Source of the DNA: Escherichia coli
GTDB taxonomy: Bacteria; Pseudomonadota; Gammaproteobacteria; Enterobacterales; Enterobacteriaceae
DNA length: 64,000 nt
Reading direction: 5' to 3' (one strand)
Assembly (NCBI RefSeq): GCF_003334405.1
Contig: NZ_QOWM01000003.1
The translations under genes and the position numbers were made by a program. This document shows positions 56,329 to 58,362 of this stretch, piece by piece; position 1 is the stretch's first letter; every line of letters starts with the position of its first letter. Under the pieces are notes generated by a model. It searched no databases and was not told the DNA's origin. It worked only from the letters and a program-made list of their open reading frames with translations.

Positions 56329-56400
56329 GCGGGAAAACTATTTCGCAACGTCGCGCTTGTGGCTAAAATAGCCGCCATTTTTCAGCTACTGGATAAGAAT

Positions 56401-58362
56401 GTGACCGTATCTTCTCATCGACTTGAACTGTTAAGCCCGGCACGCGATGCCGCCATTGCCCGCGAAGCTATTTTGCACGGTGCCGATGCTGTTTATATCG
56501 GCGGCCCTGGTTTTGGTGCCCGTCATAATGCCAGTAATAGCTTGAAAGATATTGCCGAGCTGGTGCCGTTTGCCCATCGTTATGGTGCAAAAATTTTCGT
56601 CACGCTTAACACCATTTTGCATGATGATGAGCTGGAACCCGCGCAACGGCTGATTACTGACCTCTACCAGACCGGTGTCGATGCGCTGATTGTTCAGGAT
56701 ATGGGGATTCTGGAACTTGATATTCCGCCGATTGAACTGCACGCCAGTACGCAGTGCGACATTCGTACAGTTGAAAAAGCGAAGTTCCTCTCTGATGTTG
56801 GCTTCACGCAGATTGTGCTGGCGCGAGAGCTGAATCTTGATCAGATCCGCGCGATTCACCAGGCTACGGACGCGACCATTGAATTCTTTATTCATGGGGC
56901 ACTGTGCGTGGCCTATTCGGGTCAGTGCTACATTTCTCATGCGCAAACAGGGCGTAGCGCCAACCGTGGCGATTGCTCGCAGGCGTGCCGTTTGCCATAC
57001 ACATTGAAAGACGATCAGGGGCGGGTGGTTTCCTATGAAAAACATCTGCTGTCGATGAAAGATAACGATCAGACTGCCAACCTCGGCGCGCTGATTGATG
57101 CTGGTGTACGCTCCTTCAAGATTGAAGGGCGTTACAAAGATATGAGCTACGTGAAGAATATCACCGCCCATTATCGCCAGATGCTTGATGCCATTATTGA
57201 AGAACGTGGCGATCTGGCGCGCGCTTCATCAGGTCGTACTGAACATTTCTTTGTTCCATCGACGGAAAAGACTTTCCACCGTGGTAGCACAGATTATTTT
57301 GTGAATGCCCGTAAAGGCGATATTGGCGCGTTCGATTCGCCGAAATTTATCGGCCTGCCGGTAGGCGAAGTAGTGAAAGTGGCGAAAGATCATCTCGATG
57401 TTGCCGTTACCGAGCCACTGGCAAATGGCGATGGCCTGAACGTGTTGATTAAACGTGAAGTCGTCGGTTTTCGTGCCAATACGGTCGAGAAAACCGGAGA
57501 AAATCAGTACCGCGTCTGGCCCAATGAAATGCCAGCAGATTTGCACAAAATTCGTCCACATCACCCACTAAACCGTAATCTTGATCATAACTGGCAGCAG
57601 GCACTGACAAAAACCTCCAGCGAACGTCGGGTGGCGGTAGACATTGAACTGGGCGGCTGGCAGGAACAACTGATTCTGACCCTCACCAGTGAAGAGGGTG
57701 TCAGCATCACGCATACGCTGGACGGGCAGTTCGACGAAGCCAATAACGCCGAAAAAGCAATGAACAATCTGAAGGATGGTCTGGCAAAACTGGGGCAAAC
57801 CCTCTATTACGCCCGCGATGTGCAAATTAATTTGCCGGGGGCGCTGTTTGTACCAAACAGTCTGTTAAACCAGTTCCGCCGTGAAGCTGCTGACATGCTG
57901 GATGCTGCGCGTCTTGCCAGTTACCAGCGCGGCAGCCGTAAACCGGTTGCTGATCCTGCGCCGGTTTATCCGCAAACGCATCTGAGTTTCCTCGCGAACG
58001 TATACAACCAGAAAGCGCGTGAATTTTATCATCGCTATGGTGTGCAGCTGATTGACGCGGCGTATGAAGCACATGAAGAGAAGGGCGAAGTCCCGGTGAT
58101 GATCACCAAGCATTGTCTGCGCTTTGCCTTTAATCTGTGCCCGAAACAGGCGAAAGGCAATATCAAAAGCTGGAAGGCGACGCCAATGCAACTGGTTAAC
58201 GGCGATGAAGTATTAACGCTAAAGTTTGATTGCCGCCCATGCGAGATGCACGTCATTGGCAAAATCAAAAATCACATACTGAAAATGCCGTTACCGGGAA
58301 GCGTAGTGGCATCCGTAAGTCCGGATGAGCTGCTGAAAACATTGCCGAAGCGAAAAGGGTAA
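56401..58362 (+). CDS. rlhA: peptidase U32-family protein (23S rRNA 5-hydroxycytidine synthase RlhA/YdcP)
   Basis: 653-aa form from GTG 56401; in-frame ATG 56359 would add 14 aa; U32 family homology. Confidence 0.8.
   Translation: MTVSSHRLELLSPARDAAIAREAILHGADAVYIGGPGFGARHNASNSLKDIAELVPFAHRYGAKIFVTLNTILHDDELEPAQRLITDLYQTGVDALIVQDMGILELDIPPIELHASTQCDIRTVEKAKFLSDVGFTQIVLARELNLDQIRAIHQATDATIEFFIHGALCVAYSGQCYISHAQTGRSANRGDCSQACRLPYTLKDDQGRVVSYEKHLLSMKDNDQTANLGALIDAGVRSFKIEGRYKDMSYVKNITAHYRQMLDAIIEERGDLARASSGRTEHFFVPSTEKTFHRGSTDYFVNARKGDIGAFDSPKFIGLPVGEVVKVAKDHLDVAVTEPLANGDGLNVLIKREVVGFRANTVEKTGENQYRVWPNEMPADLHKIRPHHPLNRNLDHNWQQALTKTSSERRVAVDIELGGWQEQLILTLTSEEGVSITHTLDGQFDEANNAEKAMNNLKDGLAKLGQTLYYARDVQINLPGALFVPNSLLNQFRREAADMLDAARLASYQRGSRKPVADPAPVYPQTHLSFLANVYNQKAREFYHRYGVQLIDAAYEAHEEKGEVPVMITKHCLRFAFNLCPKQAKGNIKSWKATPMQLVNGDEVLTLKFDCRPCEMHVIGKIKNHILKMPLPGSVVASVSPDELLKTLPKRKG

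What the first reader, a model, noticed from the sequence alone, without database searches (positions are those of the whole stretch)
56359..56401. Ambiguous start of rlhA (ydcP): ATG 56359 versus GTG 56401
The ORF is open from ATG 56359 but the 653-aa length I recall needs GTG 56401. The extra 14 codons would overlap the sutR terminator region.
Basis: inference. Interest (0 to 1): 0.15.

Follow-up and report, generated by a model that had tools for sequence, protein, structure and literature searches.

The report
rlhA starts at GTG 56401
The rRNA-hydroxylase gene rlhA of E. coli K-12 begins at the GTG at 56401, as current reference annotation says; the 14 extra codons upstream (which also start with GTG, not ATG) are the gene's own promoter and leader, so this is an ordinary, already settled annotation point.

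Summary
The window here is identical to E. coli K-12 MG1655 (sutR-rlhA). Two in-frame start candidates lie 42 nt apart, but both are GTG; there is no ATG at 56359. The evidence favours GTG 56401 (653 aa).

- RefSeq annotates it in every record inspected.
- All 77 non-Escherichia orthologous loci have ATG at the homologous position, 7 residues before LELLSPARD. In 32 an in-frame stop lies within 14 codons upstream.
- The triplet homologous to 56359 is CTG in 50 loci.
- A published primary transcription start (Kim 2012) falls at 56377, 18 nt downstream of GTG 56359. It follows a -10 hexamer inside a block that is almost invariant across genera.
- GTG 56359 has no Shine-Dalgarno sequence and sits in a hairpin stem.
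- Escherichia substitutions are mostly synonymous after 56401, but all three in the extension are non-synonymous.
- TrhP and UbiU profiles begin aligning at the LELL motif.
- Published mutants use 653-aa numbering, and GUG-to-AUG raises activity.

The 667-aa form persists in GenBank submissions as a longest-ORF artefact. The "sutR terminator" hairpin exists only in E. coli and E. albertii and overlaps the rlhA promoter.

This is already known and of low interest. Side observations are an out-of-frame ATG-TGA start-stop overlapping the start, and a probable indel-driven relocation of the Escherichia start codon.

The parts
55792..56328 (+). sutR (ydcN) coding sequence. Its TAA stop at 56326-56328 is in the same frame as rlhA and is the upstream bound of the open frame.
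   Evidence: RefSeq annotation; in-frame stop 25 codons upstream of 56401
56342..56347 (+). -35-like hexamer TTCGCA of the proximal rlhA promoter
   Evidence: TTCGCA, 16-nt spacer, TAAAAT; 9 of 12 matches. This position is only loosely conserved across genera.
56359..56361 (+). Upstream in-frame GTG, the rejected start of the 667-aa form. It lies in the promoter spacer and is the first three bases of the hairpin stem.
   Evidence: no Shine-Dalgarno pairing, +1.2 kcal/mol; fully paired in the stem; homologous triplet is CTG in 50 of 77 loci
56359..56382 (+). Terminator-like hairpin GTGGCTA-AAA-TAGCCGC (56359-56375) followed by CA and TTTTT (56378-56382). It is a possible weak sutR terminator and is specific to E. 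coli and E. albertii.
56364..56369 (+). -10 hexamer TAAAAT (TACAAT in other genera). It sits inside the nearly invariant block tGACTACAATAGCCGCC, which corresponds to window 56360-56376.
56377..56377 (+). Experimentally mapped primary transcription start site of rlhA (A). It gives a 24-nt 5' UTR.
   Evidence: Kim et al. 2012, PMC3415461, Table S1; their 51-mer ends at window 56377
56391..56394 (+). Weak Shine-Dalgarno-like GGAT, 6 nt before GTG 56401. It is part of a GGATAA motif conserved across genera.
   Evidence: -3.1 kcal/mol with the anti-SD
56399..56404 (+). Out-of-frame ATG-TGA minimal 'start-stop' overlapping the GTG start. It is present when position 56400 is T.
   Evidence: (4019 of 5426 genomes carry the T allele)
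56401..58362 (+). rlhA (ydcP) coding sequence, 653 aa, GTG start
   Evidence: RefSeq; orthologues; literature numbering and GUG-to-AUG mutant

Best explanation
rlhA is translated from GTG 56401 (MG1655 position 1506781) to give the 653-aa 23S rRNA ho5C2501 synthase. The 42 nt between the two GTGs are non-coding. They hold the -10 element and discriminator of rlhA's own sigma-70-type promoter (-35 at 56342-47, -10 at 56364-69), the transcription start at A 56377, and a 24-nt poorly structured leader with a weak GGAU Shine-Dalgarno. The weak Shine-Dalgarno and the GUG start together keep RlhA synthesis low. Shown here or in cited papers: the annotation, the orthologue starts, the mapped transcription start, the substitution pattern, and the phenotype of the GUG-to-AUG mutant. 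Inferred: the assignment of the promoter hexamers, the role of GGAU as the Shine-Dalgarno, and that no protein is made from GTG 56359.
For: (1) RefSeq places the start at window 56401 in K-12 and in all 8 other E. coli records inspected. (2) All 77 non-Escherichia orthologous loci have ATG exactly 7 codons before LELLSPARD. Of these, 32 have an in-frame stop within 14 codons upstream and 33 have no in-frame upstream start at all. The triplet homologous to 56359 is CTG in 50 loci, and it is a start codon that is both in frame and open in only 9. (3) The distance from the -10 hexamer to the start varies by non-multiples of 3 among genera: 37, 40, 42, 43, 44 and 46 nt. (4) A primary transcription start mapped by 5'-triphosphate-enriched RACE-seq lies at 56377, 18 nt downstream of GTG 56359. 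I had predicted this position from the promoter scan before seeing those data. (5) GTG 56359 has no Shine-Dalgarno pairing (+1.2 against -3.1 kcal/mol for 56401) and is base-paired in a -8.9 kcal/mol stem. The 56377-56440 leader is unusually unstructured (z = +1.96). (6) Within Escherichia, changes downstream of 56401 are overwhelmingly synonymous third-position changes. All 3 distinct changes in 56359-56400 are non-synonymous. (7) Three E. coli genomes carry a natural GTG-to-ATG change at 56401. (8) The TrhP profile aligns from its position 4 at residue 21 of the long form, and the UbiU profile from its position 1 at residue 22. Family N-termini therefore sit at the LELL motif. (9) Kimura 2017 and Fasnacht 2022 number Cys169, 176, 580 and 611, which are cysteines only in the 653-aa numbering. 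Changing 'the GUG start codon' to AUG raised ho5C2501 to near completion.
Against: No direct N-terminal peptide or initiation-site ribosome-profiling datum for RlhA could be retrieved. Transcripts that begin at the sutR start (55778) or at the internal start at 56130 would carry GTG 56359 if they read through the hairpin, so transcript structure alone does not exclude the long form. I could not see Fasnacht's primer table, and because both candidates are GUG, the identity of the mutated codon rests on their residue numbering. That mutation also destroys the overlapping out-of-frame AUG, so its effect has more than one possible cause. GTG 56359 is retained in all 11 Escherichia loci examined (9 E. 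coli records, the divergent L015 and E. albertii), and the 667-aa form is widely deposited.
Confidence: 0.94

Rival explanations
1. GTG 56359 is the true and main start, and RlhA is 667 aa with an Escherichia-specific N-terminal extension MAKIAAIFQLLDKN.
For: It gives the longest ORF. Many GenBank and UniRef records annotate 667 aa. The GTG is retained in all 11 Escherichia loci inspected.
Against: The mapped proximal transcription start is downstream of it. It has no Shine-Dalgarno and lies in a hairpin stem. The triplet is not a start codon, or is out of frame or blocked, in 68 of 77 other species. Changes in the extension are all non-synonymous. Paralogue profiles start at LELL. RefSeq and the experimental literature use 653 aa.
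Confidence: 0.02
2. Dual initiation. Most RlhA starts at 56401, but read-through sutR-rlhA transcripts, or transcripts from the internal start at 56130, yield a minor 667-aa isoform.
For: Upstream transcription starts at 55778 and 56130 exist. The frame is open. The hairpin is only a modest terminator, with 7 bp including a G-U pair and a T5 run after a 2-nt spacer.
Against: The signals at 56359 are the same poor ones: no Shine-Dalgarno, GUG, and sequestration in a stem. The extension shows no sign of selection as coding sequence.
Confidence: 0.04
3. The 56359-56400 interval is conserved because it is the sutR intrinsic terminator, not because it is an rlhA promoter.
For: There is a terminator-like hairpin plus T-run in E. 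coli. sutR lies immediately upstream in 72 of 79 species.
Against: The hairpin is unstable in the other genera (median -1.2 kcal/mol; only 1 of 79 at or below -7) although the sequence block is nearly invariant there. The block stays next to rlhA when the sutR-rlhA gap grows to 240-360 nt. A primary 5' end maps right after it.
Confidence: 0.1

Closest known systems
E. coli K-12 rlhA / ydcP (b1435, NP_415952.2), 23S rRNA 5-hydroxycytidine C2501 synthase
   Same: The nucleotide sequence is identical over 56329-56700 (L083). The neighbours are the same: ydcO, sutR, yncJ, hicA. It has peptidase U32 and DUF3656 domains and Cys169/176/580/611.
   Different: Nothing. This is that gene.
GUG-limited expression of RlhA (Fasnacht et al. 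2022, PMC8754641)
   Same: The same start codon. The paper calls it an unusual GUG and shows that AUG substitution increases modification.
   Different: The paper does not discuss the second in-frame GUG 42 nt upstream. It also does not discuss the overlapping out-of-frame AUG-UGA, which its AUG mutation removes as well.
Longest-ORF start-codon over-extension in automated annotation
   Same: The 667-aa entries begin at the first start-type codon after the upstream stop.
   Different: Here the upstream stop is the stop codon of the preceding gene in the same frame, and the spurious start lies inside the promoter.
Start-stop minimal ORFs (Meydan et al. 2019, bioRxiv 10.1101/520783)
   Same: [quoted passage not shown]
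   Different: The 14 published cases are internal to genes. This one overlaps the primary start codon itself. Ribosome occupancy here is untested.

Membership tests
RlhA (peptidase U32 + DUF3656 rRNA hydroxylase) | Peptidase_U32 (PF01136) domain | tested here: met
   E = 3.6e-74, residues 93-319 of the 667-aa translation
RlhA (peptidase U32 + DUF3656 rRNA hydroxylase) | DUF3656 (PF12392), which in E. coli is found only in RlhA (Kimura 2017) | tested here: met
   E = 4.5e-20, residues 405-519
RlhA (peptidase U32 + DUF3656 rRNA hydroxylase) | Essential Cys169, Cys176, Cys580 and Cys611 | tested here: met
   cysteines at these positions in the 653-aa numbering only
RlhA (peptidase U32 + DUF3656 rRNA hydroxylase) | ho5C2501 formation activity | not testable with these tools
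   Shown for the identical K-12 gene by Kimura 2017
Genuine bacterial start codon (GTG 56401) | Start codon conserved at the homologous position in orthologues | tested here: met
   ATG in 77 of 77 non-Escherichia loci; GTG in E. albertii and E. coli
Genuine bacterial start codon (GTG 56401) | Lies on the mapped transcript, with a Shine-Dalgarno at suitable spacing | tested here: met
   transcription start at 56377; GGAU, -3.1 kcal/mol, 6-nt spacer; weak
Genuine bacterial start codon (GTG 56401) | Initiating ribosome or N-terminal peptide observed | not testable with these tools
   Supplements of initiation-site profiling papers were not held or lacked the gene
Genuine bacterial start codon (GTG 56359) | Conservation, Shine-Dalgarno, and presence on the proximal transcript | tested here: not met
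Sigma-70 promoter (56342-56369) | -35 and -10 hexamers with 16-18 nt spacing | tested here: met
   TTCGCA, 16 nt, TAAAAT (9 of 12). On its own this is no more than chance gives (mean 1.2 hits in shuffles).
Sigma-70 promoter (56342-56369) | Primary 5' end 6-8 nt after the -10 hexamer | tested here: met
   published transcription start at 56377, with 7 nt between it and the -10 hexamer
Sigma-70 promoter (56342-56369) | Cross-species conservation of the -10 hexamer | tested here: met
   TA[AC]AAT, almost always TACAAT, at the homologous place in 76 of 77 non-Escherichia loci; TAAAAT in Escherichia
Intrinsic terminator (56359-56382) | G+C-rich stem-loop followed by a U-tract | tested here: met
   7-bp stem, -8.9 kcal/mol, T5 after a 2-nt spacer
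Intrinsic terminator (56359-56382) | Structure conserved in relatives, or a mapped 3' end | tested here: not met
   the hairpin is lost in other genera. 3'-end datasets were not retrievable.
Start-stop minimal ORF (56399-56404) | AUG directly followed by a stop codon, with an upstream Shine-Dalgarno-like sequence | tested here: met
Start-stop minimal ORF (56399-56404) | Ribosome occupancy and an effect on the host gene | not testable with these tools
   No initiation-site profiling data were accessible

The most novel reading that the evidence does not exclude
In the 74% of E. coli genomes with T at 56400, the out-of-frame AUG(56399)-UGA(56402) start-stop shares the weak Shine-Dalgarno with the GUG start and overlaps it. 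It could capture initiating ribosomes unproductively and, together with GUG, set the sub-saturating RlhA level that makes ho5C2501 growth-phase dependent. The published GUG-to-AUG mutant removes this AUG at the same time, so part of its effect could be due to loss of the start-stop. A separate reading that is also not excluded: the nearly invariant 17-nt block over the -10 element and discriminator is an operator for an unidentified regulator.
Probability: 0.15. Interest if true: 0.35.

Novelty: already known. Interest (0 to 1): 0.08.

Why it matters
It matters little. It confirms that the reference annotation (653 aa, GTG start) is right and that the 667-aa entries still circulating in GenBank and UniRef are longest-ORF artefacts. 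This is useful for anyone who clones, tags or numbers residues of RlhA. The exact start region has some practical relevance because RlhA dosage, set by this weak initiation region, is reported to control the level of a ribosomal RNA modification near the peptidyl-transferase centre.

Tried and rejected
(a) Direct start-site data. The Meydan 2019 journal version is not held and its preprint has no held supplements. The Nakahigashi 2016 supplements do not mention ydcP. The supplements with Fasnacht's and Kimura's primer tables are not held.

(b) Transcription start and 3'-end data. Cappable-seq, Rend-seq, Term-seq, Adams 2021 and ROSE supplements were absent, truncated or without the gene. Thomason 2015 is not held. 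Only Kim 2012 delivered.

(c) Population test for frameshifts in the extension. A 6-T allele was found in NCTC9082. In that assembly both sutR and rlhA are annotated 'frameshifted', so it is probably a homopolymer sequencing error, and I discarded it. The other 29 hits to that query are probably the A56377T substitution (inferred from the 49-nt gapped alignments and from L015; their sequences were not fetched). No 4-T allele exists.

(d) Solved structures. A sequence search of the PDB with the N-terminal 347 aa gave nothing.

(e) Rfam gave no family in 56250-56480.

(f) I recalled from memory that the invariant block resembles the IscR type-1 core. A scan with that core is not significant: 52 of 200 shuffles match as well. 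No paper links IscR to ydcP regulation. I dropped this lead.

(g) The '.2' version of NP_415952 suggests the K-12 protein record was revised once. I could not see what changed, so no claim is made.

Full report
**Observation.** The window around the finding is identical to E. coli K-12 MG1655 (0 differences over 56329-56700 against NC_000913.3). Window position equals the MG1655 coordinate minus 1,450,380. sutR occupies 55792-56328. An ORF is open from 56359 to 58362 (667 codons). GTG 56401 is in frame 14 codons downstream and gives 653 aa. The open frame is bounded upstream by sutR's own TAA (56326-56328), because the two genes share a frame. Both protein lengths are in public databases. The 667-aa form appears in submitter-annotated GenBank and UniRef entries, and the 653-aa form in RefSeq. 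The annotation ambiguity is therefore real, even though the biology is not ambiguous.

**Annotation.** RefSeq starts rlhA at the position equal to window 56401 in K-12 (1506781..1508742, NP_415952.2). It does the same in all eight other E. coli records I opened. The locus is present in 5414 of 5426 complete E. coli genomes.

**Orthologues.**
- A scan of one genome per species returned 80 orthologous loci from about 25 named genera of Enterobacteriaceae.
- In all 77 usable non-Escherichia loci an ATG sits exactly 7 codons before the invariant LELLSPARD motif. This is the position homologous to 56401.
- In 32 of them an in-frame stop lies within 14 codons upstream. In most Enterobacter loci it is only 4 codons upstream.
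- In 33 there is no in-frame ATG, GTG or TTG upstream at all.
- The triplet homologous to GTG 56359 is CTG in 50 loci. It is a start codon that is also in frame and open in only 9.
- The distance from the conserved -10 hexamer to the start codon takes values of 37, 40, 42, 43, 44 and 46 nt and others. This is indel variation that is not a multiple of three.
- Database proteins from Salmonella and Enterobacter begin MRQQPHY- or MRLQSHH-LELLSPARD.

**What the 42 nucleotides are.** The alignment of 80 upstream regions shows a block, consensus cTGACTACAATAGCCGCCAtttt, that is at least 90% conserved in nearly every column across genera. Flanking positions vary. The block stays adjacent to rlhA whether the sutR-rlhA gap is about 80 nt or 240-360 nt. 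In E. coli it reads TGGCTAAAATAGCCGCCA (56360-56377). The promoter scan had picked TTCGCA (56342-47), a 16-nt spacer and TAAAAT (56364-69), from which I predicted a transcription start near 56376/7. Kim et al. 2012 (PMC3415461, Table S1) mapped primary 5' ends by terminator-exonuclease enrichment and RACE-seq. They list a ydcP start site with a 24-nt 5' UTR. Their 51-mer ends at window 56377, an A with 7 nt between it and the -10 hexamer. That start is 18 nt downstream of GTG 56359, so transcripts from this promoter cannot encode the extension. The same table lists a second start assigned to ydcP inside sutR (window 56130) and the sutR start (55778). Only those longer transcripts, if they read through, would carry GTG 56359.

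**Translation signals.** GTG 56359 has no complementarity to the anti-Shine-Dalgarno sequence (+1.2 kcal/mol). GTG 56401 has a weak GGAU 6 nt upstream (-3.1 kcal/mol). GTG 56359 forms the first three pairs of a 7-bp hairpin (-8.9 kcal/mol). The 56377-56440 leader is less structured than 197 of 200 shuffles.

**The hairpin.** Followed by T5, the hairpin looks like an intrinsic terminator and may act as a weak sutR terminator in E. coli. It is stable only in E. coli and E. albertii. The median for the other 78 loci is -1.2 kcal/mol, and a divergent Escherichia genome (L015) has lost it. The conservation of the interval therefore reflects the promoter, not a terminator.

**Substitution pattern.** I compared eleven Escherichia loci (nine E. 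coli records, the divergent L015 and E. albertii) with the window; two were identical, and the variation below comes from the other nine.
- Changes downstream of 56401 are overwhelmingly synonymous third-position changes. E. albertii has 34 changes in 300 nt, of which 28 are synonymous.
- The three distinct changes seen within 56359-56400 (56371 G>A, 56377 A>T, 56400 T>A) would all be non-synonymous.
- The intergenic 72 nt differ at only 2 positions between E. coli and E. albertii. This is the signature of a constrained non-coding element.
- One strain had a natural GTG-to-ATG change at 56401. A query designed to hit only that allele found it in 3 of 5426 genomes.

**Protein family and literature.** NCBIfam profiles of the paralogues begin aligning at the LELL motif. 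TrhP profile position 4 aligns to residue 21 of the long form, and UbiU profile position 1 to residue 22. The Pfam domains are Peptidase_U32 and DUF3656. Kimura 2017 (PMC5727448) and Fasnacht 2022 (PMC8754641) refer to Cys169, 176, 580 and 611 and to C169A. These residues are cysteines only in the 653-aa numbering. Fasnacht et al. describe 'an unusual GUG start codon'. They show that changing it to AUG raises ho5C2501 to almost complete modification in exponential phase, and they argue that the weak start keeps RlhA sub-saturating. I could not see their primers, so the identification of the mutated GUG with 56401 rests on their numbering.

**Verdict.** GTG 56401 is the start (confidence about 0.94), and the 14 upstream codons are promoter plus leader. 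The finding is an ordinary annotation point that is already settled in RefSeq and the literature. No N-terminal peptide or initiation-profiling datum was obtainable, so a minor long isoform from read-through transcripts (about 4%) is not formally excluded.

**Side observations.**
- (i) ATG 56399-56401 followed by TGA 56402-56404 forms an out-of-frame start-stop that overlaps the GTG start and shares its Shine-Dalgarno. The T at 56400 that creates it is present in 4019 of 5426 genomes. The sampled alleles without T, in seven Escherichia loci including E. albertii, have A. Start-stops are known to bind ribosomes and slightly attenuate host genes (Meydan 2019 preprint). The published AUG mutant would also destroy this AUG.
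- (ii) The Escherichia N-terminus MTVSSHR differs from the MR(Q/L)Q..H of other genera. Pairwise alignments with Salmonella under four scoring schemes favour a TG insertion, which creates the GTG, plus an 8-nt deletion that removed the G of the ancestral ATG (now 'gtATC', 56407-56410). On this reading E. coli codons 2-4 derive from former 5' UTR. Alignments to other outgroups are ambiguous.
- (iii) The near-invariance of the -10 and discriminator block exceeds what a plain promoter needs and hints at an overlapping regulatory site. A recalled similarity to the IscR type-1 core was not significant.

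Noticed in passing
window 56399-56404: An out-of-frame ATG is immediately followed by TGA (a 'start-stop'). It overlaps the GTG start of rlhA and shares its weak Shine-Dalgarno. 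The T at 56400 that creates it is present in 4019 of 5426 E. coli genomes; the sampled alleles without T (seven Escherichia loci including E. albertii) have A. The published GUG-to-AUG mutant would also remove it.
   Followed up: partly
window 56358-56382; L004-L082 about 45-25 nt upstream of the rlhA ATG: A block cTGACTACAATAGCCGCCAttt is almost invariant across about 25 genera and is more conserved than the adjacent coding third positions. It contains the -10 hexamer, a G+C-rich discriminator and the mapped transcription start. Conservation beyond the -10 hexamer suggests an overlapping operator or a stringent-type discriminator. There was no Rfam hit, and a recalled IscR-like core match was not significant.
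   Followed up: partly
window 56391-56421 compared with L018 (Salmonella) and Citrobacter loci: The Escherichia N-terminus (MTVSSHR) is unrelated to the MR(Q/L)QxHx of other genera, although the length before LELL is the same. Alignments with Salmonella favour a TG insertion that creates the GTG plus an 8-nt deletion that destroyed the ancestral ATG (remnant 'gtATC' at 56407-56410). That would be a relocation of the start codon with former 5' UTR recruited as codons 2-4.
   Followed up: partly
window 56130 and 55778: Kim et al. 2012 list a second primary transcription start assigned to ydcP inside the sutR coding region (271-nt leader), and the sutR start only 14 nt before its ATG. rlhA may therefore be transcribed from at least two promoters plus read-through.
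   Followed up: no
window 54525-55961 (- strand), ydcO: The neighbouring gene ydcO has inconsistent annotated starts in RefSeq: 1215 nt in L001, 1173 nt in L002 and 1176 nt in K-12. The longest ORF in the window is 478 aa and runs far into sutR on the opposite strand. This is another start-codon ambiguity of the same kind.
   Followed up: no
window 55792-58362: sutR and rlhA are in the same reading frame and are separated only by sutR's TAA and 24 sense codons. Stop-codon read-through would fuse the two proteins. There is no evidence that this occurs.
   Followed up: no
L089 (NZ_LR134080.1, E. coli NCTC9082): This assembly has a 6-T run in place of T5 at 56378-56382, and both sutR and rlhA are annotated as frameshifted. 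These are most likely homopolymer errors of the assembly rather than biology.
   Followed up: yes
window 56200-56600 compared with E. coli genomes: In 5 of 5414 genomes the sutR-rlhA locus is on a record labelled as a plasmid. In one genome (H12) a transposase replaces the 3' part of sutR up to about 56314, leaving the rlhA promoter region intact.
   Followed up: no
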